This document shows, piece after piece, positions 1,446 through 61,549 of a stretch of DNA of 64,000 nucleotides. Positions within the stretch are counted from its first letter, which is position 1. Each line of letters begins with the position of its first letter. The stretch is from assembly GCA_030649895.1 (NCBI GenBank), contig JAUSEX010000030.1:592-64591 (forward strand). Reading direction: 5' to 3'. Made by a program: the position numbers and the translations under genes. This DNA comes from Candidatus Omnitrophota bacterium. GTDB taxonomy: Bacteria > Omnitrophota > Gorgyraeia > Gorgyraeales > Gorgyraeaceae. The notes beneath the pieces were generated by a model, which ran no database searches, had not been told where the DNA came from, and was given only the letters and a program-made list of their open reading frames with translations.

Positions 1446-1542
1446 AAGCTGCCCTTATTTATAATTCATGCGACGAGGGACCTTTTTGGTTAAATTATCC
1501 AAATATGATATATTCTAGCCTATTCCTTGTCAACTAATTTAT

Positions 1543-1597
1543 TAGGGACAGCGACCATTTTTCTATAAAAGAAAAATGGTCGCTGTCCCTATTTTCT
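1543..1597. terminator. Perfect 14-bp stem hairpin (gggacagcgaccat / atggtcgctgtccc) followed by a T-rich run
   Basis: Inverted repeat read directly from the sequence. It sits between the ATPase gene end and the ferredoxin promoter. Confidence 0.6.
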
Positions 1598-3352: not shown

Positions 3353-3708
3353 TTACCCAATAACATATATATAGAAATAAATAGAAGCATAACTGCAAAT
3401 ATTTTTTTAAGCACTGGGCTTGGAATACCCTGCATAAGAGTTGCGCCTATAAAACCTCCCACAATAAACCCGAAAGCTATAAATAAAGCTACCTTTACAT
3501 TTACATCTCCTGACTTGTAATATTTTATAACAGCAAGAACGCCTACGGGCAAAAGCAGCGAGGCGAGGGCTGTGCCCTGGGCCAAATGCTGGGAAAATTT
3601 GAATATATACACAAGCGCCGGGATCAATATTATGGCCCCTCCTATCCCGAAGAACCCAGAGGATATCCCAGACACAAGCCCGATTAATATACTTAATATA
3701 TTGTCCAT
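3349..3708 (-). CDS. TauE/SafE (TSUP) family membrane protein, half-size
   Basis: GxGGxxxxxP motif (GIGGAIILIPALV) and four predicted TM helices. Its stop overlaps the nth start. Confidence 0.5.
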   Translation of the reverse strand: MDNILSILIGLVSGISSGFFGIGGAIILIPALVYIFKFSQHLAQGTALASLLLPVGVLAVIKYYKSGDVNVKVALFIAFGFIVGGFIGATLMQGIPSPVLKKIFAVMLLFISIYMLLGK

Positions 3709-3744: not shown

Positions 3745-5193
3745 ATGATTATAAAGAGAGACATTGATATTATCAAGGGATATTTTGAGGACTGCTCAGG
3801 CCTTCTCGGCGGTTATGCAGACAGGGTCATAGTGCCAGAGAATGAAAAAGAAACCAAGGAAATACTACTCGAGGCGTGCGCTAAAAACATCCCTGTTACT
3901 ATATCCGGGGGCGGCACAGGCGTAACAGGCGCGAGAGTCCCTTTCGGAGGATGGGTCGTCGCAACAGAAAGCCTTAATAAAATAATAGATATAAACGAAA
4001 AAAAATTTACCGCCACGCTCCAGCCAGGAGTAAGGCTTTCTGACCTGGATGCCCATCTTTCAAAGAAAGGCCTTACGTATTTACCTGACCCCACGGAGCC
4101 GAACGCGTTTCTGGGAGGGACTATATCCACGAACGCCTCAGGCGCAAAAGGCTTCAAATACGGCCCTACGCGTAACTATATAAAAAGATTAAGGATGCTC
4201 CTCTCTACAGGAGATATTATTGATATAAAACGCGGGGACTGCTTTTTAAAGAAAGGTAAAATTTTTGCGCTCAAATTAAAAGATAAAGAAATAAAAATCA
4301 GGGTCCCTGATTACGCGATGCCCGGTATAAAAACAGCTGCCGGATATTACATAAAAGATGACATGGACCTAGTAGATCTGTTTATAGGCCACGAAGGGAC
4401 TCTTGGCTTCATACTTGAAGCTGAAATAGCGCTAGGCAGAAGGCCCGAAGAGATAATGAGCTTTTTCAGCTTTTTCGCTTCAGAAAATGACGCTATAAAC
4501 TTTGTAGGCGACGCCAAGAAACTTAGCGCGATGTCTTTGGAATACATGGACAGCCATTCTCTTTCGCTATTAAGGGTAAAATACCCGAATATCCCGCTCT
4601 CAGCAAAAGGTCTTATATATTTTGAACAGGATTACAAAAAAGAATTTGAATCAGAGGCCATAGACTCCTGGTCCAAGCTTCTTGAAAAACATAATGCGCT
4701 CATGGAAGACTCGTATTTCGCAGATTCCGACAAAGAGAGGGTAAAATTAAAAGAATTAAGGCACGCCTTGCCTGATTCCGTAAACGAGATTGTGAAAAAA
4801 AATAAAATGCCTAAGCTTGGCACGGATATCGCTGTGCCTGATAATAGATTCAAAGAGATGCTGGATTTTTATCACGACAAACTAAAATCCTCGAATATAT
4901 ATTACGTCATATTCGGCCATATAGGCGAAAGCCATATGCATGTAAACATGCTGCCTAAAACAGAAGAAGAATTCAGGGAAAGCCGCCTGGTTTATGCGGA
5001 ATTCGTAAAAAAAGCCGTAAGCTTAGGCGGCACTGTTTCAGCGGAACACGGCATAGGAAAATTAAAACACCACTTCTTGGAAATAATGTACGGGAAAGAA
5101 AACATGAAACAGATGGCCCTTCTTAAGAAATCCCTGGACCCATCGTGCGTATTGGGACTTGATAACATATTCCCGAAGGAACTCCTGAAATGA
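3745..5193 (+). CDS. FAD-linked oxidase of the GlcD / D-lactate dehydrogenase family
   Basis: PCMH-type FAD-binding N-terminus (SGGGTGVTGARVP ... LPDP) and a C-terminal FAD-oxidase domain (EHGIGKLK). Confidence 0.75.
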   Translation: MIIKRDIDIIKGYFEDCSGLLGGYADRVIVPENEKETKEILLEACAKNIPVTISGGGTGVTGARVPFGGWVVATESLNKIIDINEKKFTATLQPGVRLSDLDAHLSKKGLTYLPDPTEPNAFLGGTISTNASGAKGFKYGPTRNYIKRLRMLLSTGDIIDIKRGDCFLKKGKIFALKLKDKEIKIRVPDYAMPGIKTAAGYYIKDDMDLVDLFIGHEGTLGFILEAEIALGRRPEEIMSFFSFFASENDAINFVGDAKKLSAMSLEYMDSHSLSLLRVKYPNIPLSAKGLIYFEQDYKKEFESEAIDSWSKLLEKHNALMEDSYFADSDKERVKLKELRHALPDSVNEIVKKNKMPKLGTDIAVPDNRFKEMLDFYHDKLKSSNIYYVIFGHIGESHMHVNMLPKTEEEFRESRLVYAEFVKKAVSLGGTVSAEHGIGKLKHHFLEIMYGKENMKQMALLKKSLDPSCVLGLDNIFPKELLK

Positions 5194-6281
5194 AAATCAT
5201 AATAGCTGTGCCTGATTTTACGCGCGAAGCGCATTTAAAAAATATACTGCCTGGCCTTTTGGCTAAGCTCAATAAAAAAGGAGCGGCTTATAAAAATATA
5301 AAAATACTCATAGGCACAGGCCTTCACAGGCACCCCACAAAAAAAGAAATAAAATATAACCTGGGAAACATACCAACCGCGGTTAATGTGCATTCGCACG
5401 ATTATAAAAACGTATTTTACGCCGCCAGATCAAAAAGAGGGGTACCTGTTTACCTGGACAAGCTGTTGAGGGGGGTTGATTCGATAATAACCATAGGCGT
5501 AGTAGAGCCGCATCTTTACGCAGGTTATAGCGGAGGCGTAAAAGTCCTGTCCATAGGCCTGGCGGGAGAAAAAACAATAAACGCAACGCACCATCCGAGA
5601 TTCTTGGATCATCCCGGCACCGGGATATGCTCCATTAAAGGCAATCCTTTCCAGGCATTCATACAGGAAACAGCTTCTATGCTTCCTGTTGAATATTCTA
5701 TAAACATAGTTAATGATGAAAATGGTAAAATACTAAAAATATTCGAAGGAAAACCAGGCCCGTGTTTCAAAAAAGCTGTCAATTATTCCAGGGTGATCTT
5801 TGAAAAAAATATAAAAAAATACCTGGATGTGATAATATGCGACATACCGCGTTCAAAAGGCGCCAATATATATCAGGCGTCGCGGCCGTTTAATTATATT
5901 GTAAATACCGGTAATCCGGTCGTAAAAAACAGCTCCCTTATACTTGTAAAAGCTACCCTGGAAGAAGGTTTCGGAAAAGGGCTTGGCGAAAAACGCTTTA
6001 TGAAAAAGATGTTGGGAATGAAAAACCCGGATAAGCTGATAGAAGAAATCAAAAAAGGCGGATGCCTGGCAGGAGAACACCGCGCTTACATGGTATCCAA
6101 AGCGCTCAAAAAGGCAAAGCTTGGTTTTATATCGAAAAACGCCGGGCTTTATAAAAATAAAGGTCTTCCGTTTTTATTCTTTGAAGGCCATGGCGAAGCT
6201 AAAAAATATATAAAAGAAAACTACAAAAATCCTGCGACATACCGCTTGAAAAACGCTTTTACAACTATCCTCAACTACTAA
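5190..6281 (+). CDS. LarA-like (DUF2088, lactate-racemase N-terminal domain) protein
   Basis: DFTR ... GTGLHRHPTKKEI matches the LarA N-domain signature (D-x-TR, ATGxHR). Translationally coupled to the FAD oxidase (ATGA overlap). Confidence 0.5.
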   Translation: MKIIIAVPDFTREAHLKNILPGLLAKLNKKGAAYKNIKILIGTGLHRHPTKKEIKYNLGNIPTAVNVHSHDYKNVFYAARSKRGVPVYLDKLLRGVDSIITIGVVEPHLYAGYSGGVKVLSIGLAGEKTINATHHPRFLDHPGTGICSIKGNPFQAFIQETASMLPVEYSINIVNDENGKILKIFEGKPGPCFKKAVNYSRVIFEKNIKKYLDVIICDIPRSKGANIYQASRPFNYIVNTGNPVVKNSSLILVKATLEEGFGKGLGEKRFMKKMLGMKNPDKLIEEIKKGGCLAGEHRAYMVSKALKKAKLGFISKNAGLYKNKGLPFLFFEGHGEAKKYIKENYKNPATYRLKNAFTTILNY

Positions 6282-20113: not shown

Positions 20114-20134
20114 ATTTATCTCTCTAACCATCTT

Positions 20135-20175
20135 ACGCTTCGTAAGTGCAAGAGATTACACTTACGAAGCGTAAC
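20135..20175. repeat. Perfect 16-bp inverted repeat (ttacgcttcgtaagtg / cacttacgaagcgtaa) between hrb and fprA
   Basis: Read directly from the sequence. The core CGCTTCGTAAGTG recurs at 31262-31320 inside the kor operon. Confidence 0.6.
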
Positions 20176-20905: not shown

Positions 20906-22198
20906 CTAAGCTTTCAAGATCTTCGCAAGATCATCTTTAGGATTAGAGACCAATCTCAAATCAAACTTTTCCTGAAGCACCCCGAATACATTCTTTGATA
21001 AAAATGCAGGAGGCGTAGGGCCTATGTAGATACCCTTAATATTAAGATACAATAAACTTAAAAGAATCGCAACAGCTTTCTGCTCAAACCACGACAGAAC
21101 CAACGTGAGCGGCAGGTCGTTCACGCCTGTCTTAAAAGCACCTGCCAGCGCTTCTGCGATCTTTATCGCGGAATACGCGTTATTGCACTGGCCCACGTCT
21201 ATCAGTCTTGGGATACCTTCTATATCTCCAAAATCAAGCTTATTGAAACGGTATTTTCCGCACGCAAGCGTAAGTATCACGCAATCTTTCGGAACCAGCT
21301 CTGCGAATTCCGTATAATAATTTCTGCCTGCCTTTGCTCCGTCGCAGCCGCCTATTAAAAAGAAATGTTTTATCTTTCCTGATTTCACGGCGCCTATCAC
21401 TTTATCGGCAATGCCAAGGACTGCGGTATGATGAAAACCTGTCATTATCTTTTTACCGGGCGCCTCAGGCAAACCAGGCAAACTCTTCGCCTTCTCAATC
21501 AACCCGCTGAAATCTTTCCTGTCCTGTATCCGCTTAGATCCCGTAACGCCTGTTATGCCTATTGTAAACAGCCTGTCCAGATAAGTATTTTCCGGCGGTA
21601 TCAAAACGCAGTTAGTAGTAGCTAAAATAGCGCCCGGAAATTCTTTAAATTCTTTTTTCTGCTCCTGCCATGCGCCCCCGTAATTACCAACAAGGTGCTT
21701 GAATTTTTTAAGTTCAGGATATCCGTGAGCCGGCAGCATTTCGCTATGCGTGTACACATTAACCCCGGTACCCTCTGTCTGCTTCAATAATTCATAAAGA
21801 TCCAGGAGGTCATGGCCTGTAATAAGTATGCCCGGCCCCTTTCTTGTTCCCGTCTCAACTTCTACAGGCACAGGATTGCCAAACTTGCCGGTATGCGCTT
21901 TATCCAGAAGCTCCATCACCTTTATATTTATCTGGCCGCACTTTAAAACCAGCCCGATATATTGGTTTATGTCAAAGCTCACGTTTGTAACTGTCTTAAA
22001 TAGCGCCTCATGCATAAAAGCATCCACTTCTTTGTCTATAGCCCCGAGTTCTCTTGCGTGATACGCATATGCAGCTATGCCCTTTAACCCGAATAACAGG
22101 GTATCCTGCAGGCTCTGTATATCTTCATTCTTTCCGCACACGCCTGCCTTTGTGCACCCTGTACCGCCCGCTGTCTGCTCGCATTGATAACAAAACAT
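20906..22198 (-). CDS. hcp: Hybrid cluster protein (hydroxylamine reductase)
   Basis: N-terminal MFCYQCEQT…GCTKAGVCGK Cys motif characteristic of Hcp. About 430 aa. Confidence 0.85.
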   Translation of the reverse strand: MFCYQCEQTAGGTGCTKAGVCGKNEDIQSLQDTLLFGLKGIAAYAYHARELGAIDKEVDAFMHEALFKTVTNVSFDINQYIGLVLKCGQINIKVMELLDKAHTGKFGNPVPVEVETGTRKGPGILITGHDLLDLYELLKQTEGTGVNVYTHSEMLPAHGYPELKKFKHLVGNYGGAWQEQKKEFKEFPGAILATTNCVLIPPENTYLDRLFTIGITGVTGSKRIQDRKDFSGLIEKAKSLPGLPEAPGKKIMTGFHHTAVLGIADKVIGAVKSGKIKHFFLIGGCDGAKAGRNYYTEFAELVPKDCVILTLACGKYRFNKLDFGDIEGIPRLIDVGQCNNAYSAIKIAEALAGAFKTGVNDLPLTLVLSWFEQKAVAILLSLLYLNIKGIYIGPTPPAFLSKNVFGVLQEKFDLRLVSNPKDDLAKILKA

Positions 22199-22250
22199 TT
22201 TACCCCTCCCTGTTATTTCGCTTTTCCGATCGCCGATCGGAAAACGGTTT

Positions 22251-22490
22251 CTACTTTTTATTTTTCTTATATCTTTCGTATTTCTGAGACCCTATACAAT
22301 CCTTTGCCATGCTGCACCAGTCAAGACACGACCCGGGCAAACATCTGCTCGTCTTTTTTTTGCAACAAGGGCAGGTAGTTTCCGTCTCGTCAGACCAAAT
22401 CTCTATTTCTTTGCCGCATGAACATTTAATATTCTCAGGAAATGGCTCTTTCACTCTCTTGGAGCCAGGGCAACCGTCAAAAAAACTCAT
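22251..22490 (-). CDS. Small Cys-rich protein (10 Cys in 79 aa) inside the hcp operon
   Basis: CSCGKE…CPCCKKK…CLPGSCLDWC. Its start overlaps the upstream Fe-S gene stop (ATGA). Confidence 0.4.
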   Translation of the reverse strand: MSFFDGCPGSKRVKEPFPENIKCSCGKEIEIWSDETETTCPCCKKKTSRCLPGSCLDWCSMAKDCIGSQKYERYKKNKK

Positions 22491-23197
22491 TTTATATCCC
22501 CCTGGATACCTACGGTAATTTCCTTTACAAGTATTTTTTTACAGGATAATTTCACTGCCTCGCCCACTATGTGATTCAAGCCAAAACAGCACGGCACTTC
22601 CATGTGCGCGACTGTCACGCTCTTTAGATTATTGACTTTGAAAATCTCAGCCAGTTTTTCTATATACATATCTCCTTCGTCCAGTTTCGGACAGCCTATA
22701 ATAAGAGGCTTGCCTTTTAATAAGTCCTGATGAAAGCCAGGATATGAAAACGCCACGCAGTCAGCAGCTATCAATAAATCCGCATTTTTTAAATACGGCG
22801 CGTCTACAGGTACCAGCTTCAGCTGTATGGGCCAGTTAGCGAGCTCGGATTCCGTCTTCACCATTGGCCCTTCACCCTTCACCACCCTGGGTTTAAGCGT
22901 TTTCACAGCTGTTCCAGGGCATCCGCATGGTAATCTCTTCTCTTCTTTCTTTTTTATATCCTCCAGATGTCTTTTGGTTGCTTCTTCGTCAAAAGATTTT
23001 GCGTCTTTTTCCTCAATGCTGATAGCGCCTTCAAGGCAATGGCCAAGGCACGCGCCTAACCCGTCGCAGTAAATGTCTTTTACTAGCCTGGCCTTCCCAT
23101 TTACTATCTGAAGAGCGCCTTCCGCGCAATTCGGTATGCATAACCCGCACCCTGTGCATTTTTCCTCGTCTATCTTCACTATTTTACGTTTTGCCAT
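22487..23197 (-). CDS. 4Fe-4S ferredoxin-domain protein with a Cys-rich C-terminal domain
   Basis: CTGCGLCIPNC plus further Cys clusters. It lies between the Rrf2 regulator gene and hcp. Confidence 0.5.
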   Translation of the reverse strand: MAKRKIVKIDEEKCTGCGLCIPNCAEGALQIVNGKARLVKDIYCDGLGACLGHCLEGAISIEEKDAKSFDEEATKRHLEDIKKKEEKRLPCGCPGTAVKTLKPRVVKGEGPMVKTESELANWPIQLKLVPVDAPYLKNADLLIAADCVAFSYPGFHQDLLKGKPLIIGCPKLDEGDMYIEKLAEIFKVNNLKSVTVAHMEVPCCFGLNHIVGEAVKLSCKKILVKEITVGIQGDIK

Positions 23198-46847: not shown

Positions 46848-46970
46848 GACTTATGATTAACAGTTTACAACAATTTTAAATTTAAGTCAAACGTTGTAAA
46901 ATTTTGTTTGATTAAAAAAATATTTTTGATAAAATAAACCTATCGATTTTTTAAAGCTTTGGGAGGCGCG

Positions 46971-48416
46971 ATGAAGTTCGCAGGAAAAATTCTTGTAATA
47001 GGGTGTGGTTCTGTTTCGCAATGCGCAATACCGCTCGTATTAAAAATTATAGATGCCCCGCCGGAAAATATCACCATAATGGATTTTACGGATAACAGGC
47101 CCCGCGTAAAGGACAGCCTGGATAGAGGCGTACGTTACGTGATTGACCGCATTACCCGCGAAAACTATCCGAATCTTCTAAAAAAATACGCAGGCCCGGG
47201 CGATCTCATAATTGATCTGGCGTGGAATATAGACTGTATAGAAATGCTTCAGTGGTGCAGGGATAATAAGGTGCTATACGTAAATACGTCCGTCGAGGTC
47301 TGGGATCCTTACTCAATAGACGCCAAAGACCCGAGAAACCTGACCCTTTATGTCAGGCAGATGGAAATACGCAAGCTCGTTAAAAAATGGGGCGACAACA
47401 ATGGCGCCACAGCTGTCGTAGACCACGGGGCAAACCCCGGGCTTGTGTCTCATTTCACAAAAATCGCCTTAGAAGATATTGCCAAAAAAATTATTTCGGA
47501 CAAATCGAAAGATAAACGCGTAAAAGCATTAAAAGACGCGCTGAATAACAAAAATTATCCTGAACTCGCGAGAAATGCCGGGGTCAAAGTCATACACATA
47601 AGCGAACGCGATACGCAGATTACCGATAAACCGAAAGAGGTTGATGAATTTGTCAACACCTGGAGCATCGAAGGATTTTTTGAGGAAGGCATAGCCCCTG
47701 CGGAGATGGGCTGGGGAACTCATGAAAAAAATATCCCCGAGAAGGCCTGTTTTCACAAGTCTGGCCCTAAAAATCAGATTTGTCTGAAAAGCATGGGCGT
47801 AAACACCTGGGTGCGTTCGTGGGTGCCTGATTGCGAGATAGTGGGAATGGTCATCCGCCACGGCGAAGCGTTTGGGATATCTGACAGGCTCACGGTATGG
47901 AATAATAAAGGAAAAGCTGTTTACCGGCCTACTGTCCATTACGCGTATTGCCCTGCAGACGCTGCTATAATCTCCCTGCATGAGCTCGAGATGAGGCGTT
48001 ACAACCTTCAAGAAAAACAAAGGATAATGAATGACGAGATCATAAAAGGAGAAGACAGGTTAGGGGTCTTGCTTATGGGCCATGATTTTAATTCATGGTG
48101 GATAGGAAGCCTTCTGGACATCGAAGAGGCGAGAAAACTCGTGCCTCATCAGAACGCAACCACGCTACAGGTCGCAATATCAGTAGTGGCTGCTGCCGGA
48201 TGGATGATTGAAAATCCGAATAAAGGCTTTAATCTCCCTGACGACCTGCCGCACGAAGACATAATGAAAATTTCAAGGCCGTACCTCGGGCCCTTTGTTT
48301 CAAAACCAGTTGACTGGACTCCGTTAAAGAACTATGATAATACTTTCAGGACGCTTGGCCTTGAAAAACCAAAGCTTAAAGATGTTTGGCAGTTCACGAC
48401 ATTTTTAATACCTTAG
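46971..48416 (+). CDS. Saccharopine-dehydrogenase-fold enzyme, homospermidine-synthase-like, paralog 2
   Basis: IGCGSVSQC Rossmann motif. Colinear with paralog 1 along its length (ERDTQITDKPKEVDEFV… is shared). ATG at 46971 behind a GGGAGG. Confidence 0.5.
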   Translation: MKFAGKILVIGCGSVSQCAIPLVLKIIDAPPENITIMDFTDNRPRVKDSLDRGVRYVIDRITRENYPNLLKKYAGPGDLIIDLAWNIDCIEMLQWCRDNKVLYVNTSVEVWDPYSIDAKDPRNLTLYVRQMEIRKLVKKWGDNNGATAVVDHGANPGLVSHFTKIALEDIAKKIISDKSKDKRVKALKDALNNKNYPELARNAGVKVIHISERDTQITDKPKEVDEFVNTWSIEGFFEEGIAPAEMGWGTHEKNIPEKACFHKSGPKNQICLKSMGVNTWVRSWVPDCEIVGMVIRHGEAFGISDRLTVWNNKGKAVYRPTVHYAYCPADAAIISLHELEMRRYNLQEKQRIMNDEIIKGEDRLGVLLMGHDFNSWWIGSLLDIEEARKLVPHQNATTLQVAISVVAAAGWMIENPNKGFNLPDDLPHEDIMKISRPYLGPFVSKPVDWTPLKNYDNTFRTLGLEKPKLKDVWQFTTFLIP

Positions 48417-48418
48417 CC

Positions 48419-49546
48419 ATGAAAAATAAATCCGGCGGCATAGAAAATCTGATACGTAGAATGCTGAAAAAACACTCATCTCCTCTTATGCTGATACAGG
48501 AAGACGTGCTTGAGAGGCAATTCAGGGCTTTCCGTAAAGCCCTGCCTGAAGTCACGCCTTACTACGCTATCAAAGCAAATCCTTATCCCGGAATAATTAA
48601 AAAGTTTATTGAATTAGGCGCTGGCTTCGACGTAGCAAGCGCCAACGAGATGAATGTTGTCCTGGAACTCGGAGCAAGCCATGACAAAATAATTTTCGCC
48701 AATACTATAAAATCCCACGAAGATATGCGATCCGCCTGCAAGAAAAAAGTAAAGCTCATGACCTTTGACAATGAGTCGGAATTATACAAAATAGCGAAGG
48801 CCTGCCCGGGCGCAAAAGTCATCATAAGGATCAAGGTGGCAAATATCGGCAGTATCGTAGAGCTCTCTCTTAAATTCGGGGCTGATCCGGAGCAATCGAT
48901 ATCCCTGCTGAAAAAAGCAAGGTCTTTGGGGCTGAAGCCCATGGGCGTAAGTTTTCATGTCGGATCGCAATGCACTAACTCCGAAAATTATTTACAGGCC
49001 CTTGAGGTGTCTTCCGTGATATTCAACGAAGCGAAACAATCAGGGATATTTTTGAACATACTGGATATAGGCGGCGGATTCCCTATAAAACATTTTGACG
49101 CTGACAACCATCTTACATTTGAGCGCATGGCAAGCCAAATAAGGAAAAAATTGCAGAGACTCTTTGACAAAAACGTGAAGTTCATCGCTGAGCCTGGCAG
49201 ATTTTTTGCAGGCCCTGCCGGAATACTCGTAACACAGGTAATAGGGAGGGCTTTTAGAAATAATAAAAACTATTACTACCTCAACGACGGGCTATATGGA
49301 GATTTTTCCGGCATAGTATTTGATCATTGTAAATATGAATTCAAGACCTTAAAAAGAGGCCAAAGATTCTTAAGCACCCTGGCTGGGCCTACGTGCGATT
49401 CATTTGATACGATTTCCTTAAGCGAAGACCTTTCTGAGCTTGATGTGGGCAATGTAGTCTACGTGAAAAATATAGGCGCTTATTCATGTGCAAGCGCTGT
49501 GCCAAACTTCAACGGCTTTAAGCCTGCAAAGATCGTAATGTGCTAG
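48419..49546 (+). CDS. Group IV PLP decarboxylase, carboxynorspermidine-decarboxylase (NspC)-like
   Basis: PYYAIKANP PLP-Lys motif and GGG loop (GGGFP). About 376 aa from the ATG at 48419. Confidence 0.6.
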   Translation: MKNKSGGIENLIRRMLKKHSSPLMLIQEDVLERQFRAFRKALPEVTPYYAIKANPYPGIIKKFIELGAGFDVASANEMNVVLELGASHDKIIFANTIKSHEDMRSACKKKVKLMTFDNESELYKIAKACPGAKVIIRIKVANIGSIVELSLKFGADPEQSISLLKKARSLGLKPMGVSFHVGSQCTNSENYLQALEVSSVIFNEAKQSGIFLNILDIGGGFPIKHFDADNHLTFERMASQIRKKLQRLFDKNVKFIAEPGRFFAGPAGILVTQVIGRAFRNNKNYYYLNDGLYGDFSGIVFDHCKYEFKTLKRGQRFLSTLAGPTCDSFDTISLSEDLSELDVGNVVYVKNIGAYSCASAVPNFNGFKPAKIVMC

Positions 49547-49561
49547 TATATAGCCTATCCG

Positions 49562-49603
49562 ACTCCGTGAATCGCCGTACAGGGCGACTCACGGAGTCGG
49601 ATA
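49562..49603. terminator. GC-rich nested hairpin between convergent genes (ccgactccgtga…tcacggagtcgg)
   Basis: 12-bp outer and 5-bp inner inverted repeats. It overlaps the 3' end of the minus-strand gene. Confidence 0.5.
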
Positions 49604-51298
49604 TTGGTCAAAAAATAAAATACTCCCTACATCGCGAAGCATCCCATCGCATAATTCCACTGCTTTCTTGTCTCTCTTTTTTATAAAATCTCTTATCGCG
49701 TAGCCGTCAGGATGACTTTTTAACACTCCTGTAAAAAATACTTTATCTTTATGGACTCCTGATGCGCCGCCTATAAAACCAGTATCGTAGCCGGGTAATT
49801 TTATATGCCCGGGGGTTACAAGCAGGCTGTTTTTACCCCAGACATCATTTATAGACTTATCGGATGTAATAATACTCTCTCCATCCACAGGCGCAATGGA
49901 ACATTTCGCGTATCCCTGTTTTACTTTTATAAATTTCGCGCTTAGCCTTTCTATATGCTTTTCGATTTTCCCGTCATAGCGGATTATGGATTTTCCAAGG
50001 CTGCATGCGTCGTAAATAATATCCGCGGGATAGGCGGAAGATTTGATGTATTCACCTTTAATGCATTCATAGCCGTTATCTTTTAAAAGCCCTGCTATTT
50101 TTTCCAAATGCGGCTCGTAAATAATTTTTTTACCGTAAGAAAATAACATCATATCAGGATGGCCCCTTACAGGCTTTGCTAATTTTGGATGCATAGGGGC
50201 TTCTGTTATATAATATCCCATCTTCTTTAATCTTATTTTCGCCTTACTGGGCATCCTTGGATCAATAATGGCAATGGATTTTCTTATGTCTTTAACCCTT
50301 ACCATTGTCCACCTACGGGGTGAGCCAGATGGCTCACCCCGTAGGTGGACAGGTGCTCCATAATATTTTTCTAAATATTTTTTTTCTAATCCCCTGTGCC
50401 CGGATATTAGATTAAACATATTTTTAGGCGCGCGTATTTCTATTATTTTGCGATTAGGTATTTTTTTAGCGCCCAAAATATCTCTTATCCTATTGCGCAT
50501 CTGTCTTGCGCGCGCCATCTCTCCAAAGCTCGCATGATATGGCCCCGCGAGGATTATTTTCTTTGAGTTCAAGCACTCTGAAGGATGGAGACCTATGCGT
50601 ATTACTTTCACAGCCCCTTTTTCAAAAATATCTGAAACGCAGGCAGACCACTCTATCGCATCCTCCAACGATAATGGCTTGTACCTGCCTTTTTTAAATA
50701 AATCTCCAAGCCCTGTGCCTTTTAAAACAATAGCAGGATAAATGCGGGCTGTCTTCGGCTCTAATTCTATAAGCTTTTCAGCTGTTCTTATTGATTTTTC
50801 AAGCGTATCCCCTGGCAACCCAAGCATCACCTGGACTCCCAGGTCAAGGCCTGATTTTTTTATAATGCGGGAGGCATTTCTGATTATTTTAAAATCCATC
50901 GCTCTCCTGGATTTTTTTAAAACTTCCGCATCAAGCGATTGCACCCCCAGCTCTACCAGGCAACCCCCCATTTTTTTAAACAACTTCATTGATTTTTCGG
51001 AAATGGCTTCAGGATGAGTAGACATCCTCAATCCTTGTATTTTTTTGCTTTTTACGTAAGGGTAAACCGCTTCGAGATATCTCTGCTGAAGAGATTCAGG
51101 CATAAGCGTAAACGTGCCGCCAAAAAAGGCAAGCTCTGTTCTTTCGTTACGGGAAATAGTGCCAAGATTTCTTTCTATAGAGGACTTTATTTCTTCTGTG
51201 GAAGGCAATTTATCCGCGCCTGATATTTTATGCTGATCACAGTAAATGCACCTGTATGAACAGCCGGCGTGTGGAATAAATATGGGTATGATTTTCAC
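49589..51298 (-). CDS. Radical SAM (Elp3/YhcC-like) domain fused in frame to a roughly 240-aa C-terminal domain of unknown function
   Basis: IFIPHAGCSYRCIYCDQ radical-SAM N-terminus. The domain junction is encoded by a perfect palindrome (50306-50351), immediately followed by MVRV… preceded by an AGGTGG Shine-Dalgarno. Confidence 0.5.
   Translation of the reverse strand: MKIIPIFIPHAGCSYRCIYCDQHKISGADKLPSTEEIKSSIERNLGTISRNERTELAFFGGTFTLMPESLQQRYLEAVYPYVKSKKIQGLRMSTHPEAISEKSMKLFKKMGGCLVELGVQSLDAEVLKKSRRAMDFKIIRNASRIIKKSGLDLGVQVMLGLPGDTLEKSIRTAEKLIELEPKTARIYPAIVLKGTGLGDLFKKGRYKPLSLEDAIEWSACVSDIFEKGAVKVIRIGLHPSECLNSKKIILAGPYHASFGEMARARQMRNRIRDILGAKKIPNRKIIEIRAPKNMFNLISGHRGLEKKYLEKYYGAPVHLRGEPSGSPRRWTMVRVKDIRKSIAIIDPRMPSKAKIRLKKMGYYITEAPMHPKLAKPVRGHPDMMLFSYGKKIIYEPHLEKIAGLLKDNGYECIKGEYIKSSAYPADIIYDACSLGKSIIRYDGKIEKHIERLSAKFIKVKQGYAKCSIAPVDGESIITSDKSINDVWGKNSLLVTPGHIKLPGYDTGFIGGASGVHKDKVFFTGVLKSHPDGYAIRDFIKKRDKKAVELCDGMLRDVGSILFFDQYPTP
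50306..50351. repeat. Perfect 21-bp-arm GC-rich inverted repeat (tgtccacctacggggtgagcc-agat-ggctcaccccgtaggtggaca) embedded in frame in a CDS
   Basis: Read directly from the sequence. The arms are roughly 65% GC against a much lower-GC background. It encodes …HLRGEPSGSPRRWT… at the domain linker. Confidence 0.7.
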
Positions 51299-51625
51299 TT
51301 ATTGCTTATGGAATAGGACCGTAAAAACCATTACAAGCGTAAAAAAGAAAAAATTTATATAGGTAAACGTCTTATAGACTACATCAGGGCTTTGTATGCC
51401 GGCTGGAAACATCGCCAGGAAGCAAAACCATACGCCCAGCGCCCATGGAATACTGAGGTCCTTGGATGAGCGGCGTTTTATAATCCTCACTATAAGAGGG
51501 ATATTCCAGAGAGGCAACATAATACTTGCTATGAGAGCTATTTTTTGTATCATTTCAAAAGATAACTTCTTAACTCCCCGCCAGAGAACTATTGGCGGGT
51601 CGTTCGAAAAATATTGTTCGAGCAA
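51299..51625 (-). CDS. Small membrane protein (3 TM helices) of unknown function
   Basis: Hydrophobicity only. Confidence 0.3.
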   Translation of the reverse strand: MLEQYFSNDPPIVLWRGVKKLSFEMIQKIALIASIMLPLWNIPLIVRIIKRRSSKDLSIPWALGVWFCFLAMFPAGIQSPDVVYKTFTYINFFFFTLVMVFTVLFHKQ

Positions 51626-51634
51626 AGTCGAGAA

Positions 51635-52606
51635 TTATGCCTTGCCTGCGGAGCCCAGGACATGCTCGTTTTTGTGTTTATACATTTTTACAAGTTCATC
51701 CCTCGCAGGGCCCAAGTATTTACGCGGGTCAAATTCTTTGGGATTTAAGGCAAATACCTCTCTTATCTTGGCTGTCATTGCCAAGCGGCCGTCTGAATCA
51801 ATATTTATTTTACAGACAGCGGATGTGGTGGCTTTTCTCAACTGTTCTTCGGGAACTCCAGCTGTATTTTCAAGCTTTCCGCCGTATTTATTTATAAGGT
51901 CTACGTATTCTTTTGTGACGGAACTCGCGCCGTGCAGGACTATCGGAAAACTAGGTATTCTTTTCTCAACCTCTTCCAATATATCAAATCTCAGAGGCGG
52001 AACGCTTTCTCCTGGTTTTAATTTAAATTTATACGCGCCGTGGGAAGTGCCTATGGAGATCGCAAGGCTGTCAACGCCTGTTTTCTTTACAAAGTCCTCC
52101 ACCTCTTCGGGATGAGTGTAATGGCTGGCTTCATGGCTGACTTCGTCTTCTATCCCCGCCAATACTCCGAGCTCGCCTTCCACTGTAACGTCGTATCTAT
52201 GCGCATATTCAACTACTTTTTTAGTAAGGACCACATTGTCTTCGTACGTATGCGCTGAGCCGTCTATCATGACAGAAGAAAATCCTGACTCTATGCAAGA
52301 AACGCAGAGTTCGTAAGTATCTCCGTGGTCCAGGTGAAGCGCCACAGGGATGTTGGAGCCGGCTGATTTTATTATTTCCATAGAGCCCATTGCCATGTGC
52401 CTCAGCAAGATCTGGTTTGCGTATTTCCTGGCGCCTGAAGAAACTTGTAGAATAACAGGAGACTTCGTCTCTATGCAGGCGGTGACTATTGCCTGGAGCT
52501 GCTCCATGTTATTAAAATTATAGGCTGGAATAGCGTATTTGCCAGCCATTGCCTTTTTAAACATATCCCTTGTGTTAACCAGCCCTAAATCTTTGTAAGA
52601 ATGCAT
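51635..52606 (-). CDS. fba: Class II fructose-bisphosphate aldolase
   Basis: LHLDHG…, GAS and HGAS Zn-binding motifs. Start at 52606 behind the leader cassette. Confidence 0.8.
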   Translation of the reverse strand: MHSYKDLGLVNTRDMFKKAMAGKYAIPAYNFNNMEQLQAIVTACIETKSPVILQVSSGARKYANQILLRHMAMGSMEIIKSAGSNIPVALHLDHGDTYELCVSCIESGFSSVMIDGSAHTYEDNVVLTKKVVEYAHRYDVTVEGELGVLAGIEDEVSHEASHYTHPEEVEDFVKKTGVDSLAISIGTSHGAYKFKLKPGESVPPLRFDILEEVEKRIPSFPIVLHGASSVTKEYVDLINKYGGKLENTAGVPEEQLRKATTSAVCKINIDSDGRLAMTAKIREVFALNPKEFDPRKYLGPARDELVKMYKHKNEHVLGSAGKA

Positions 52607-58847: not shown

Positions 58848-60127
58848 CCTCTTATTTTCCATGCTTCGGCGTAAACAAAAGACAGGAAATCGAACGGCTT
58901 GTTTACGAAATATCCAAAAGAGACAAAATAAGCCCGGAAAAAATACTCAGTCCTGTTTATTCCGATAATTTCGAATCTTTAAAAAACAGGCTTATCAAAA
59001 TAAGATTTCCGTACGCCTCCAAATATAACAAGACTATAAGGCCATACCTGCCTAAGATAGCGATAAAACCTGCCGATAAGTTTAATCCCGGAGATTCGGA
59101 GTTCAACCCCGCCAGGATATTTATCGAAAAATCAGCTGCTTCATCCGGCCTTAAAAACAACTTCAGAAAATCTTTCCCTGAAGCGAAATTTACGGAAATA
59201 TCCTCGCTGAAAGACTTTATCCGGGACAATAAAACATCAGGCCCGTCCTCTTACAACAAAAGGCGCGACAATGTTTTTATCACAAATGAAAAATATGACT
59301 TCTTTAAAAAATGCCCATGCACAAAAGGCGCAGTCGGATGCGGATATCATATATTTAACCTGGGTTTCGGCTGCGTATTTGACTGCACATACTGCTACCT
59401 CCAGGAATATAACAATGCGCCCGGGCTTATATTCCCTGCGAATATCAATAAATTTTTCGAAAGATTCAGGCGCTACAAAAAACTAAAGATGCGCATCGGA
59501 ACAGGAGAATTTTCAGACTCGCTGATGCTGGACCATATAACAGAATATTCTGTAGATATAATAGAATTTTTTAATAAGCATGAGGATGTTACTTTTGAAT
59601 TCAAAACAAAAAGCGCGAATATATATAATATTTTAAAATCAAGGCATTCAGGAAATATCGTAGTCTCCTGGTCTTTAAATCCTCAGGGCATAATAGACAA
59701 AAACGAATTTTTTACAGCGTCTTTGAGCGAGAGGCTGGACTCAGCTGAAAAATGCGCCCAGGCAGGCTACAAGGTAGGGTTTCATTTTGATCCTGTGATT
59801 TATTTTAATGGATGGGAGAAAGAATACCAAAGCGTAATAGACTTATTATTCAATAAAATAAACCCCAAAGATATAGCGTGGATAAGCATGGGCACATTCA
59901 GGCTTAAGCCTGAATTAAAACCACTGATAGAAAACCGTTTTCCGGATAACAAGATTCTGGACGAGGAACTTTTGGCGGGGTATGATAATAAATTAAGGTA
60001 TCCTTACGGCCTGAGATACACTATATATAAAAGTCTGCTCAATAGCTTTAAAAAATATTCTAAAAAGCTTCCGATCTATCTCTGCATGGAAGAAATTTCT
60101 ATCTGGCAAGACCTTAAGTCCGCCTGA
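58829..60127 (+). CDS. Spore-photoproduct-lyase-like radical SAM enzyme with a roughly 170-aa N-terminal extension
   Basis: GCVFDCTYCYLQ closely matches the SplB cluster motif (C-x-x-D/H-C-x-Y-C-Y-L-Q). Confidence 0.55.
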   Translation: MQLHKIASYFPCFGVNKRQEIERLVYEISKRDKISPEKILSPVYSDNFESLKNRLIKIRFPYASKYNKTIRPYLPKIAIKPADKFNPGDSEFNPARIFIEKSAASSGLKNNFRKSFPEAKFTEISSLKDFIRDNKTSGPSSYNKRRDNVFITNEKYDFFKKCPCTKGAVGCGYHIFNLGFGCVFDCTYCYLQEYNNAPGLIFPANINKFFERFRRYKKLKMRIGTGEFSDSLMLDHITEYSVDIIEFFNKHEDVTFEFKTKSANIYNILKSRHSGNIVVSWSLNPQGIIDKNEFFTASLSERLDSAEKCAQAGYKVGFHFDPVIYFNGWEKEYQSVIDLLFNKINPKDIAWISMGTFRLKPELKPLIENRFPDNKILDEELLAGYDNKLRYPYGLRYTIYKSLLNSFKKYSKKLPIYLCMEEISIWQDLKSA

Positions 60128-60141
60128 CAGGCGGACTTAAG
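60109..60141. terminator. Perfect 14-bp-stem hairpin (accttaagtccgcc-tgaca-ggcggacttaaggt) overlapping the stop codons of both convergent genes
   Basis: Read directly from the sequence. A candidate bidirectional terminator. Confidence 0.6.
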
Positions 60142-61549
60142 GTAAAACCTTTATAGCTCTTTCAGGCCGCGTGGGGCACTTATTCTGGCAAATCCCGCAT
60201 CCCACGCATAAAGAAATATCCACGTAAGGCTTGCGAATCTTTTTTCCCGCAATCGTTTCTTCATAGGTCTTGATAGCTTTGCTGGCTACGGGACAATGTT
60301 CTTCGCACACGATACATTCTCTATTCTGCGACAATGGGAGGCATATATTTTTATCAATAATCGCCGAGCCAAGTTTTTGCTCCTTTTTTTGAGCCAAGCT
60401 TAAATTAGGTATTGCGCCTGCGGGGCAAACTTGTCCGCAAAGATTACAATTATATTCGCAATATCCTATCTCAGGCACAAGATGAGGCGCCCATATGCCT
60501 GCGAGGCCTGATTCGAATATCGCAGGCTGCAGGCCGTTGGTCGGGCAGATCTTCATGCAATTACCGCACCTTATGCATTTATTTAAAAATTCATGCTCAT
60601 TTTTAACCCCAGGCGGCCTGATAAGCTTTTTTTTAGCAGAGCCTTCCCTTCCCTTAAACCCTAAGAATAAAAACGAGGACGCTATCAAAAATAAAAAATC
60701 TTTGCGCGATATAGAACCTTCGCTTCCGGAGCGCTTTGCGGTATTTTTAATGGGCCAGGAAAATTTTGTGGCCAGATCAGGGCAATCATATATACAATCC
60801 ATACAAAGGATGCACTCTTCTTTTCTATAGCCCGAGTCTTCTTTTATAGCGGACATACGGCAGTTGATGCTGCATCTCATACAATGCATGCATTTATCAA
60901 TATGCCTGCTCAACAAACAAAACCTCGCGGTAAGCGCGTATATCGCTCCAAGCGGGCAAAGGATGCGGCACCAGAATCTTTTTGTTATAAGCGCAAGCCC
61001 GCAGATTATAACAAAAAAACTTAAAGTGATAAATGAATGCGGGAAATAAAATATCTTTGTCCCAAGTATTGATAATTTCAGCATGCGGTAAAAATCATAG
61101 AGCGGCGTGTAAAAATTAAGACCCTTTATAAGAAAAATAAACGCCTTGTCCATGGCCAGGGTAAAAGACGGTATAAAATTTAAAGAAATAAACCTTGCTG
61201 TGATAACAAGCGGGTCAAAAATCCATACAATCTGAATACCTATAAACGCAAAAACAACAATAAGGCCCAGGATAAAATACTTAATATTTCTGAAAAGGCC
61301 CATATCCCTGTTTTTCGCTTTTATTCCGCATGCATCAATAATAGTCCCGAGCGGGCAAACCCATCCGCAAAAAAATCTTCCTATTATAAAGGTCATGGCG
61401 AGCATCGTCAAAGAAAACAGGCTGAATACCGAGACCAGCGGGTCTATTTTAAAAAACGCGGCTGCGTGCGGGGTCAGCCACAAAAGATAAATAAATAACA
61501 TCAGAAAAGATATCTGGCTAAGCCTTCTGAATAAAATTAATTTTTTCAT
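60137..61549 (-). CDS. Membrane-bound polyferredoxin, NapH/MauN-like
   Basis: N-terminal TM helices with CxxC, plus multiple CxxCxxCxxxCP ferredoxin motifs (CIRCGNCMKICP, CVGCGICQNKCP). Confidence 0.6.
   Translation of the reverse strand: MKKLILFRRLSQISFLMLFIYLLWLTPHAAAFFKIDPLVSVFSLFSLTMLAMTFIIGRFFCGWVCPLGTIIDACGIKAKNRDMGLFRNIKYFILGLIVVFAFIGIQIVWIFDPLVITARFISLNFIPSFTLAMDKAFIFLIKGLNFYTPLYDFYRMLKLSILGTKIFYFPHSFITLSFFVIICGLALITKRFWCRILCPLGAIYALTARFCLLSRHIDKCMHCMRCSINCRMSAIKEDSGYRKEECILCMDCIYDCPDLATKFSWPIKNTAKRSGSEGSISRKDFLFLIASSFLFLGFKGREGSAKKKLIRPPGVKNEHEFLNKCIRCGNCMKICPTNGLQPAIFESGLAGIWAPHLVPEIGYCEYNCNLCGQVCPAGAIPNLSLAQKKEQKLGSAIIDKNICLPLSQNRECIVCEEHCPVASKAIKTYEETIAGKKIRKPYVDISLCVGCGICQNKCPTRPERAIKVLP

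What the first reader, a model, noticed from the sequence alone, without database searches (positions are those of the whole stretch)
50306..50351. Perfect 21-bp GC-rich palindrome inserted in frame at the domain junction of a radical-SAM fusion gene
Seen in sequence: tgtccacctacggggtgagcc-agat-ggctcaccccgtaggtggaca lies inside the 569-aa minus-strand ORF. It translates without a stop to …HLRGEPSGSPRRWT…. Its distal arm supplies an AGGTGG Shine-Dalgarno 4 nt before an internal ATG (MVRVKD…), where the C-terminal domain of unknown function begins. The GC content is far above the local background. This resembles in-frame palindromic mobile elements (Rickettsia RPE-like or REP/MITE insertions) that create linker peptides. 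Alternatively it is a read-through intergenic hairpin that fuses a YhcC/Elp3-like radical SAM gene to a downstream gene. Either way it records a recent gene-fusion or gene-splitting event, with possible dual expression of the C-terminal domain.
Basis: seen in the sequence. Interest (0 to 1): 0.7.

Follow-up and report, generated by a model that had tools for sequence, protein, structure and literature searches.

The report
In-frame REP-type palindrome in a gene linker
The 46-bp perfect palindrome is one copy of a family of small transposase-associated hairpin repeats (REP/REPIN type) that litter Omnitrophota genomes and are sometimes tolerated in frame inside genes; it does not mark a recent gene fusion.

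Summary
The palindrome is real. Window 50306-50351 has 22-nt perfect arms and a 2-nt loop, 63% GC against 42% background, and folds at -51 kcal/mol (z = -9.3). It lies in frame in a 569-aa rSAM+DUF6873 ORF and encodes residues 317-331. It is not a fusion scar: more than 100 homologs down to 33% identity carry the same fusion.

It belongs to a dispersed repeat family, "family A". One Omnitrophota MAG holds 16 copies, and all 34 copies examined have at least 17 bp of unbroken stem. About 8 of 28 copies lie in frame in Pfam-verified genes, including IleRS, AlaRS, Fmt, a MiaB-like enzyme and MtnA. In L120 two family A copies bracket a Y1/HUH transposase whose best NCBIfam hit is "REP-associated tyrosine transposase". 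Four homologs are each bracketed by their own palindrome type.

At this same linker position, orthologs carry at least five unrelated palindrome types, degraded or deleted copies, or none. Family A orthologous copies covary. The internal ATG is not conserved.

Intragenic in-frame REPs are already known (Opitutus, Rickettsia RPEs). This is a variant in a new phylum, with unusually long perfect stems. Moderate interest.

The parts
50306..50351 (.). Family A palindrome (REP/REPIN-type element). It has 22-nt perfect arms and a 2-nt loop. Each arm contains a nested small palindrome, CACC-TACGG-GGTG. On the + strand the element is followed by GGT (50352-50354), which completes the family's usual AGGT terminus.
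   Evidence: Family membership.
49589..51298 (-). Host ORF of 569 aa, a radical SAM (Elp3/MnmL-like) + DUF6873 fusion protein. The element encodes residues 317-331 (VHLRGEPSGSPRRWT).
   Evidence: P0001 is 100% identical, from a Candidatus Omnitrophota MAG.
50504..51277 (-). Radical_SAM (residues 8-174) plus Radical_SAM_C (residues 181-265) domains.
   Evidence: PF04055 E = 3.1e-19; PF16199 E = 5.7e-15.
49616..50269 (-). DUF6873 domain (residues 344-561).
   Evidence: PF21778 E = 1e-59, full-length profile match 1-228.
50303..50305 (-). Internal ATG (Met332) immediately after the element. It is not conserved among orthologs.
49556..49603 (.). Family B palindrome with 21-bp arms (one mismatch) and a 6-nt loop, at the 3' end of the same ORF. 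Its arm supplies the last four codons (YPTP) and the TGA stop. It sits between the two convergent genes. The same family occupies the linker site in L010, L011 and L015.
60111..60143 (.). A-like short-form palindrome, ACCTTAAGTCCGCCTG-A-CAGGCGGACTTAAGGT, at a convergent gene junction. It has the same outline as the outer and nested part of family A, with ACCT...AGGT termini.
1541..1593 (.). Another long palindrome (24-bp stem, one mismatch) at a convergent gene junction. It contains TAGGGACAG, reminiscent of family E. It is unique in the data held.
20133..20174 (.). Long palindrome (19-bp stem, one mismatch) between two tandem minus-strand genes, overlapping the 3' end of the upstream one.

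Best explanation
The palindrome is one copy of a REP/REPIN-type repeat ('family A'). These are short GC-rich hairpin elements, propagated in Omnitrophota genomes by a cognate single-copy Y1/HUH tyrosine transposase (RAYT-like) that acts on hairpins in single-stranded DNA. Most copies lie just past gene 3' ends. A substantial minority survive inside genes when they land in a permissive loop or linker, in one of the two stop-free frames.

Here the copy sits in the junction between the rSAM module and the DUF6873 domain of an old fusion protein. It adds 15 Gly/Pro/Ser/Arg-rich residues, and those residues include the least confidently modelled stretch of that junction.

Shown: repeat-family membership; copy number in relatives; in-frame copies in other genes; the RAYT bracketed by the same repeat; the age of the fusion; turnover and decay at this site; and paired (complementary) changes in the arms.

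Inferred: that the RAYT mobilises the element; that the insert is close to neutral for the protein; and that arm complementarity is kept mainly by DNA-level processes. Candidate processes are hairpin-templated correction (template switching at quasipalindromes) and conversion or re-seeding from other copies, rather than selection for an mRNA function in this gene.
For: Repeat family:
- The pattern GGTGAGCCANNTGGCTCACC gives 16 copies in MAG JAPLMD01, 5 in CAKKRB01, 2 in JAGVFL01 and 1 each in three other Omnitrophota. Non-Omnitrophota genomes give one or two sites each, of the order expected by chance.
- Full-length copies reach 58 bp and share the outline ACCT(T)GGTCCACCTG-N-CAGGTGAGCCA-NN-....
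- All 34 copies have at least 17 bp of uninterrupted stem, although the stem sequence varies between copies.

Transposase link:
- L120:4906-5535(-) is bracketed by family A copies at 4841-4898 and 5562-5609. It hits Pfam Y1_Tnp at 32.1 bits (cut-off 23) and NCBIfam NF047646 REP_Tyr_transpos at E = 8.5e-17. It carries HIH and YIHLNP motifs.
- 3,261 homologs score E <= 1e-10. In the top-120 list, all those whose source name gives a specific taxon are Omnitrophota.
- Four homologs that I fetched are each bracketed by their own palindrome type; L150 has family C, which also occupies this linker in L008, L012, L013 and L037.

In-frame tolerance:
- Copies lie inside IleRS (L092, L119), AlaRS (L140), a MiaB-like enzyme (L100), MtnA (L127), LpxL-ELM1 (L145) and Fmt (L088), with Pfam matches spanning the insert.
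- Only the two stop-free frames are used.

Old fusion.

Same-site turnover: families A, B, C, D and G, degraded A copies, an A copy with 24 nt deleted, and an empty site.

Structure model: pLDDT is below 50 at residues 326-331, inside the element-encoded peptide.

Literature: the REPIN/RAYT definition (PMC8049555); intragenic in-frame REPs and REP termini that supply stop codons are already described (PMC3733652).
Against: - No RAYT and no second long family A copy were found in the 64-kb window. The source genome is not among the reference genomes scanned, so copy number and transposase presence in the source genome itself are untested.
- The RAYT scores below NCBIfam's curated cut-off (61.4 against 80 bits).
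- The RAYT-flanking copies lack the classical GTAG tag.
- Stems of 19-30 bp are much longer than the 5-13 bp reported for GTAG REPs.
- Occupation of exactly the same linker position by at least five palindrome types, together with clear covariation, is also what selection for a hairpin at this position would produce.
- No transposition event was observed, because no closely related filled and empty pair was available.
Confidence: 0.82

Rival explanations
1. The hairpin is a selected mRNA (or DNA) structure at the domain boundary. It might act as a translational pause that lets the Fe-S/rSAM module fold, as an RNase or exonuclease barrier, or as a processing site. Repeat elements would simply be the raw material recruited for that role.
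For: - Nearly all long-linker orthologs carry a strong hairpin at the same position, although the sequences are unrelated (families A, B, C, D and G).
- Among orthologous family A copies, 6 stem pairs changed on both sides, in 13 cells. None of 500 shuffles reached the covariation score, and slid controls gave 0-2.
- Hairpin-stem sequence diverges about as fast as the flanks while pairing stays perfect in five lineages.
Against: - The same elements occur at many unrelated intergenic and intragenic sites.
- Degraded copies (L003-L006), a centrally deleted copy (L147) and an empty site (L028) persist in intact genes.
- A whole subfamily of about 500 aa lacks the segment altogether.
- All 34 copies everywhere have perfect stems. 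Perfection is therefore a property of the repeat, not of this site.
- There is no Rfam match and no T-tract.
Confidence: 0.1
2. The palindrome is a relic of an intergenic terminator-like hairpin that became coding when two adjacent genes (rSAM and DUF6873) fused recently. The C-terminal domain would still be expressed separately from the internal SD+ATG.
For: - In this window, long hairpins otherwise sit at gene 3' ends.
- Stand-alone rSAM homologs of about 335 aa exist in other phyla (P0109, P0115-P0118).
- AGGTGG-ACA-ATG is present in this genome.
Against: - The fusion is present in more than 100 homologs down to 32-39% identity, including non-Omnitrophota.
- Orthologs without a hairpin are still fused (L028, L147).
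- The ATG is not conserved.
- The SD-like motif is part of the repeat consensus and is sequestered in the stem.
- The only rSAM-only close relative examined (L027) arose by deletion of DUF6873, not from an unfused ancestor.
Confidence: 0.03
3. It is an assembly or chimera artefact of a metagenome-assembled genome, such as a fold-back join at a palindrome.
For: Perfect palindromes can cause assembler artefacts, and the source is a MAG.
Against: - The reading frame and both flanking domains are intact and collinear with orthologs.
- The identical protein is on record from two sources, NCBI and Logan.
- Orthologous palindromes occur at the same codon position in more than 20 independent assemblies.
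Confidence: 0.01

Closest known systems
REP/REPIN elements with their RAYT (REP-associated tyrosine transposase), as in Pseudomonas and Enterobacteria
   Same: - It is a short GC-rich palindromic repeat in multiple dispersed copies, mostly just downstream of genes or between convergent genes.
- The transposase gene is a Y1/HUH enzyme bracketed by the cognate repeat, and each transposase homolog has its own repeat type.
- Each arm holds a small nested palindrome, so the whole element looks like two inverted REP units forming one long hairpin. That is the REPIN architecture (definition in PMC8049555).
- REP ends can supply stop codons to neighbouring ORFs, as with the window's family B copy (PMC3733652).
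   Different: - Stems are 19-30 bp and essentially perfect, against 5-13 bp for GTAG REPs.
- The spacer is only 0-6 nt.
- The RAYT-flanking copies have no GTAG tag. Instead ACCT/AGGT termini are about 10-fold enriched.
- The transposase scores below NCBIfam's RAYT cut-off.
- About 30% of family A copies are intragenic and in frame.
- The host phylum, Omnitrophota, has no description of such elements in the library searched.
Intragenic GTAG/CGTC REPs (Di Nocera, De Gregorio & Rocco 2013, PMC3733652), most numerous in Opitutus terrae
   Same: REP units or dimers lie wholly inside ORFs of known proteins. They encode roughly 10-30 extra residues and are argued to sit in flexible linkers or loops. 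The window element is exactly this situation.
   Different: Sequence family, tag and stem length all differ. In addition, here the same linker position is occupied by several unrelated repeat families across orthologs.
Rickettsia palindromic elements (RPEs)
   Same: Palindromic repeats are inserted in frame in many unrelated, functional genes, adding a peptide segment compatible with the fold.
   Different: RPEs are about 100-150 bp, belong to Rickettsia-specific families, and have no known dedicated transposase. The element here is 46-58 bp and has a cognate RAYT-like gene.
Quasipalindrome correction by template switching (own knowledge: Ripley 1982; Dutra & Lovett 2006; not checked here)
   Same: This is a DNA-replication mechanism that copies a change from one arm of an inverted repeat into the other. 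It would produce the 'compensatory' pairs and the loop flips (AGAT/ATCT) seen here without any selection.
   Different: It is a mutational process, not an element family. Whether it operates here is an inference.

Membership tests
REP/REPIN-RAYT system | Short palindromic repeat present in many dispersed copies per genome | tested here: met
   There are 16 copies with the exact 20-nt apical core in MAG JAPLMD01 and 5 in CAKKRB01, with further copies in metagenome loci. Caveat: for the source genome only the 64-kb window could be read. It holds one long family A copy, one A-like short form and one family B copy.
REP/REPIN-RAYT system | A cognate Y1/HUH tyrosine transposase gene flanked by the same repeats | tested here: met
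   The L120 RAYT-like ORF is bracketed by two family A copies. It scores 32.1 bits on Pfam Y1_Tnp (above the cut-off of 23). Its NCBIfam REP_Tyr_transpos hit has E = 8.5e-17 but is below the curated cut-off, 61.4 against 80 bits. Four homologs are each bracketed by a pair of their own palindromes. None was found in the window itself.
REP/REPIN-RAYT system | Conserved GTAG (or GGAG) tetranucleotide at the 5' end of the REP unit | tested here: inconclusive
   The window copy and the CAKKRB variants contain CGTAGG, but inside the stem. The copies that flank the RAYT (CTG-N-CAGG variants) have no GTAG. ACCT/AGGT termini are enriched instead: 27 of 76 and 21 of 76, against a background of about 3%.
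REP/REPIN-RAYT system | REPIN architecture: two inverted REP units forming one long hairpin | tested here: met
   Each arm carries a nested palindrome: CACCTG-N-CAGGTG in most copies, CACC-TACGG-GGTG in the window. The inner loops flip between copies. Short single-unit forms also exist: window 60111-60143 and the L027 remnant.
REP/REPIN-RAYT system | Transposase-dependent mobility of the repeat | not testable with these tools
   This needs biochemistry (RAYT binding and cleavage of hairpin ssDNA) or closely related genomes with filled and empty sites.
Rickettsia palindromic elements (RPE) | In-frame insertion into ORFs of unrelated functional genes | tested here: met
   In-frame copies lie in IleRS, AlaRS, Fmt, a MiaB-like enzyme, MtnA, LpxL-ELM1 and this rSAM-DUF6873 gene.
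Rickettsia palindromic elements (RPE) | RPE sequence families of about 100-150 bp, CGTC-tagged short forms, Rickettsia lineage | tested here: not met
   The element is 46-58 bp, has no CGTC tag and is found in Omnitrophota (RPE description).
Intrinsic (Rho-independent) terminator | GC-rich stem-loop immediately followed by a U/T tract | tested here: not met
   The terminator-like scan of 49300-51700 does not report either palindrome. On the mRNA strand the sequence after the stem is ACAAUGGUAAGGG.
MITE | Terminal inverted repeats around a non-palindromic core, 70-300 bp, with target-site duplications | tested here: not met
   The whole element is the hairpin, with a loop of 0-6 nt. No direct repeats flank the copies.
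Any curated RNA family (Rfam 15) | Match at the gathering threshold | tested here: not met
   There are 0 matches in the whole window.

The most novel reading that the evidence does not exclude
The hairpin at this position is not merely tolerated but exploited. Omnitrophota would keep a strong REPIN-derived stem-loop exactly at the rSAM/DUF6873 boundary, replacing one repeat family with another over time. The mRNA or ssDNA structure would do something there: pause translation for co-translational folding or Fe-S loading, protect the transcript, or provide a built-in recombination joint that lets the C-terminal domain be shed, as in L027. In that reading a selfish repeat family would have been co-opted as a modular in-frame domain-boundary element.
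Probability: 0.1. Interest if true: 0.75.

Novelty: new variant of a known kind. Interest (0 to 1): 0.45.

Why it matters
**For annotation.** The odd Gly/Pro/Arg-rich segment in this protein is repeat-derived. So are many similar insertions and C-terminal tails in Omnitrophota proteins. They should not be read as fusion scars, internal starts or new motifs.

**For mobile-element biology.** The result extends REP/REPIN-RAYT systems to Omnitrophota. The variant here has unusually long, perfect stems and a possible ACCT/AGGT terminal tag. A high fraction of copies lie in frame inside essential genes, including aminoacyl-tRNA synthetases.

**For protein evolution.** The data give a natural series at one site: insertion, family replacement, decay, internal deletion, and loss of a whole domain between two repeat positions. 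It shows how such repeats can create linkers and remodel domain architecture.

Tried and rejected
- **Other copies in the window.** Searching for the 21-mer arm with up to 3 mismatches found only the two arms themselves.
- **Known RNA families.** Rfam over the whole window gave no hits.
- **Terminator.** Neither this palindrome nor the one at the gene's 3' end has a T-tract.
- **RAYT in the source.** tblastn with the L120 RAYT against the window and all held loci found no hit in the window or the other Omnitrophota loci.
- **Extending the source contig.** One look-up had no record. The other returned a Logan contig lying inside the window. The copy census in the source genome therefore could not be done.
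- **Source genome in reference genomes.** The window's own 46-mer was not found.
- **Extra sequence conservation.** Stem identity between orthologs is about equal to coding-flank identity, for example 0.75 against 0.76 for WIN-L002. There is no extra sequence constraint; only pairing is kept.
- **Gene tree against palindrome family.** The NJ tree is star-like and poorly resolved. Families appear interspersed, but the number of replacement events cannot be stated.
- **Internal translation start.** Rejected, because the ATG is not conserved and the SD-like motif is part of the repeat.
- **Recent fusion.** Rejected.
- **Frameshift site.** By inspection, there is no X_XXY_YYZ slippery heptamer upstream in frame.
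- **'Empty' orthologs as naive sites.** P0011 (L147) turned out to be a family A copy with its central 24 nt deleted, and P0008 (L148) carries a different hairpin.
Full report
**1. The observation**

The palindrome is at window 50306-50351 as described. It has 22-nt perfect arms and a 2-nt loop. GC is 63%, against about 42% locally. The mRNA strand folds at -51 kcal/mol, z = -9.3 against 200 shuffles. No arm-like 21-mer occurs in shuffles of the window.

It lies in the minus-strand ORF 49589..51298 (569 aa). It is read in frame as V317-HLRGEPSGSPRRW-T331, followed by Met332. The host protein is Radical_SAM (8-174) + Radical_SAM_C (181-265) + DUF6873 (344-561). Its rSAM part is closest to the MnmL/YtqA and Elp3 models. 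The protein is 100% identical to a Candidatus Omnitrophota MAG protein that is also on record from an independent Logan assembly.

**2. Not a fusion scar**

The same three-domain architecture is found in more than 100 homologs of 494-634 aa. They range from 79% down to 32-39% identity and include non-Omnitrophota, such as Mobilitalea. The fusion is therefore old.

The ATG after the palindrome is present only in the window, L001/L097 and L147. The AGGTGG is part of the repeat consensus, wherever the repeat occurs.

**3. What sits at this site in orthologs**

I fetched 80 related loci and extracted the linker DNA between conserved anchors. At the same codon position, orthologs carry the following.

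| Type | Loci | Sequence or note |
|---|---|---|
| Family A, perfect | window, L001, L002, L007, L019 | as in the window |
| Family A, degraded | L003-L006 | pairing partly lost |
| Family B | L010, L011, L015 | ATCCGACTCCGTGAGTCGCC... |
| Family C | L008, L012, L013, L037 | CCGTTCGCCGATCGG... |
| Family D | L016, L017, L020 | CCCGTCCGCC-TAA-GGCGGACGGG |
| Another type | L009, L148 | |
| Family A, central 24 nt deleted | L147 | |
| No hairpin | L028 | short linker |

Family B is the same family as the palindrome at the 3' end of this very gene in the window (49556-49603). That copy supplies the codons YPTP and the TGA stop.

An NJ tree of the proteins is poorly resolved, but the families look interspersed on it.

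Among orthologous family A copies, the stem sequence diverges about as fast as the coding flanks. Changes nevertheless come in complementary pairs: 6 pairs changed on both sides, in 13 cells. None of 500 shuffles reached the covariation score, and slid controls gave 0-2. The loop dinucleotide flips between reverse complements, TC against GA, which gives Ser against Asp.

**4. It is a dispersed repeat**

A hairpin census of 484 kb of Omnitrophota loci found 81 hairpins with a stem of at least 14 bp. They fall into recurring families at intergenic sites, gene ends and intragenic sites.

I scanned 185,579 reference genomes with the apical core GGTGAGCCANNTGGCTCACC.

| Genome | Copies |
|---|---|
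| MAG JAPLMD01 | 16 |
| CAKKRB01 | 5 |
| JAGVFL01 | 2 |
| Three other Omnitrophota | 1 each |
| Non-Omnitrophota genomes | about 40 stretches, one or two sites per genome |

My estimate of the number expected by chance is about 9-25 for 18 specified bases in 596 Gb, so the non-Omnitrophota hits are of that order.

Full-length copies reach 58 bp. Each arm has a nested palindrome. All 34 copies have at least 17 bp of unbroken stem, even though they differ at positions the search did not constrain.

In this window the other long palindromes sit at convergent or tandem gene junctions. One of them, 60111-60143, is an A-like short form.

**5. In-frame copies in other genes**

Eight of 28 family A copies in the reference Omnitrophota genomes lie deep inside long ORFs. 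Pfam matches span the insert in each case.

| Host gene | Locus |
|---|---|
| IleRS | L092, L119 (same site in two genomes) |
| AlaRS | L140 |
| MiaB-like rSAM | L100 |
| MtnA | L127 |
| LpxL-ELM1 | L145 |
| Fmt | L088 |
| Ortholog of the window gene | L097 |

Only the two stop-free frames are used: VHLxGEPxGSPxRWT and STCQVSQLAHLTGG. The third frame contains TGA.

A different family (E, GTAGGGGACAGGCA|TGCCTGTCCCCTAC) sits in frame at a second site of the rSAM-DUF6873 gene in L008, L013, L024 and L030.

**6. Transposase link**

In L120 an ORF bracketed by two family A copies hits Pfam Y1_Tnp above its cut-off. Its best NCBIfam hit is 'REP-associated tyrosine transposase' at E = 8.5e-17, which is below that model's curated cut-off.

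The family has 3,261 members at E <= 1e-10. In the top-120 list, all those whose source name gives a specific taxon are Omnitrophota.

Four homologs at 64-70% identity are each bracketed by a near-identical pair of their own palindromes. One lies between a conserved promoter-like box and the start codon. The other lies just after the stop codon. L150 carries family C, and L152 carries a 54-bp palindrome with an A-like outer stem.

This is the REP-RAYT arrangement described in the literature (PMC3733652; PMC8049555). ACCT/AGGT termini are about 10-fold enriched at the ends of these palindromes, although family A dominates that sample.

**7. Protein context**

An AlphaFold model built on alignment A1 has mean pLDDT 82.8. 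It drops below 50 at residues 326-331, inside the element-encoded peptide, and the mean for residues 321-330 is 53. This fits a tolerated junction insert.

**8. Side effects on the gene**

In L027, with the same gene neighbourhood, the ORF runs to a remnant of the family A palindrome. It then abuts the stop codon of the convergent neighbour, and DUF6873 is gone. In L002 both the linker and the 3' end carry family A copies. Recombination between two such copies is therefore a plausible cause of the deletion; this is an inference.

**9. Mechanism and its rivals**

Best supported: this is a REPIN-type selfish or domesticated repeat. A RAYT-like enzyme copies it through single-stranded hairpin intermediates, and it is kept in frame here because the junction tolerates it.

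The perfect arms and the paired changes can be explained in two ways without invoking function:
- hairpin-templated correction, that is template switching at quasipalindromes (my own knowledge, not tested here);
- exchange with other copies.

Support for this view is that every copy everywhere is perfect, not only this one.

The main rival is selection for a hairpin at this boundary. It is not excluded, given the recurrent occupancy of the site. It is weakened by degraded, deleted and empty sites in intact genes and by the roughly 500-aa subfamily that lacks the whole segment.

**10. Novelty**

Intragenic in-frame REPs are already documented, most abundantly in Opitutus terrae, and as RPEs in Rickettsia. 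I found no description of such elements in Omnitrophota in the library.

Four things differ here:
- the long perfect stems;
- the absence of a GTAG tag on the RAYT-flanking copies;
- the high in-frame fraction, including aminoacyl-tRNA synthetases;
- the multi-family turnover at one linker.

I rate it a new variant of a known kind, of moderate interest.

Noticed in passing
L027:1380-1412 (syntenic with window 49546-50351): The rSAM ORF (343 aa, P0086) ends in a remnant of the family A palindrome (GTCCACCTG-A-CAGGTGGAC), 2 nt from the stop codon of the convergent neighbour. The entire DUF6873 domain is deleted. The endpoints are where relatives such as L002 carry two family A copies.
   Followed up: partly
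L147:1263-1325 (P0011): This ortholog looked 'empty' but retains both outer ends of family A (GTCCACTTACG...GGATCAATGG). The central 24 nt are deleted, and the deletion preserves the reading frame.
   Followed up: yes
L008:11552-11579, L013:2650-2677, L024:11335-11364, L030:3063-3090 and 3342-3369: A different GTAG-tagged palindrome (family E, GTAGGGGACAGGCA|TGCCTGTCCCCTAC) is in frame at a second site of the same rSAM-DUF6873 gene, encoding ...GDRHACP... It occurs twice in L030. It also lies in another gene in L009:4052.
   Followed up: partly
L092:5000-5039, L119:2479-2518, L140:5586-5633, L088:3481-3524, L100:1572-1615, L127:686-723, L145:5209-5260: Family A copies lie in frame inside IleRS (same site in two species-level genomes), AlaRS, Fmt, a MiaB-like enzyme, MtnA and an LpxL-ELM1 fusion.
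   Followed up: yes
L150:1380-1435, L151:1385-1440, L152:1130-1181, L153:1395-1450 (approximate): A conserved promoter-like box (TTTTTGAAAGAAA...ATGTGTCaTATATAG) lies upstream of the 5' palindrome of every RAYT homolog examined. The 5' palindrome would therefore be in the RAYT 5' UTR.
   Followed up: no
76 distinct GC-rich palindromes in the Omnitrophota loci and the window: ACCT lies within 6 nt of the 5' end in 27 of 76, and AGGT within 6 nt of the 3' end in 21 of 76, against about 3% background. This suggests a terminal tag analogous to GTAG/CGTC. The sample is dominated by family A.
   Followed up: partly
A1 columns 305-404; P0025-P0040, L023-L026, L029-L031: A subfamily of about 500 aa lacks the roughly 75-residue segment between Radical_SAM_C and DUF6873, including the palindrome site. 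On the NJ tree these short forms are not one clade, so there may have been repeated deletions.
   Followed up: no
Family A copies generally, e.g. window 50328-50329 against L001:7020-7021: Loops come as reverse-complement pairs (AGAT/ATCT, AAAT/ATTT) or are themselves palindromic (AATT). The inner 5-nt loop of the nested palindrome also flips (TACGG against CCGTA). This is flip-flop inversion of hairpin loops.
   Followed up: partly
A1: P0016 columns 95-119, P0040 columns 502-528, P0022 columns 545-576 and the linker: Other orthologs carry 25-32-residue Gly/Pro/Arg/Ala-rich inserts at further sites, with shared motifs such as 'PRALA[RH]G'. These are probably more in-frame repeat units or dimers. 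Their DNA was not examined, apart from L009.
   Followed up: no
window 22218-22255: A small family C-like palindrome (TTTTCCGATCG-C-CGATCGGAAAA) lies in the intergenic gap between ORFs 20906..22198 and 22487..23197. The same unit occurs in L029:4076 and L109:7122.
   Followed up: no
window 6000-46000: GC skew is persistently negative (cumulative -3.9 across the window), and almost all ORFs of 120 aa or more between about 6 kb and 47 kb are on the minus strand.
   Followed up: no
window 46959-49546 and L027:1410-4072: There is conserved synteny. The rSAM-DUF6873 gene is convergent with a pair of genes that look like a polyamine pathway: an Orn/DAP-decarboxylase-like gene and a saccharopine-dehydrogenase-like gene. 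A small membrane protein lies upstream. The identifications are by sequence inspection only.
   Followed up: no
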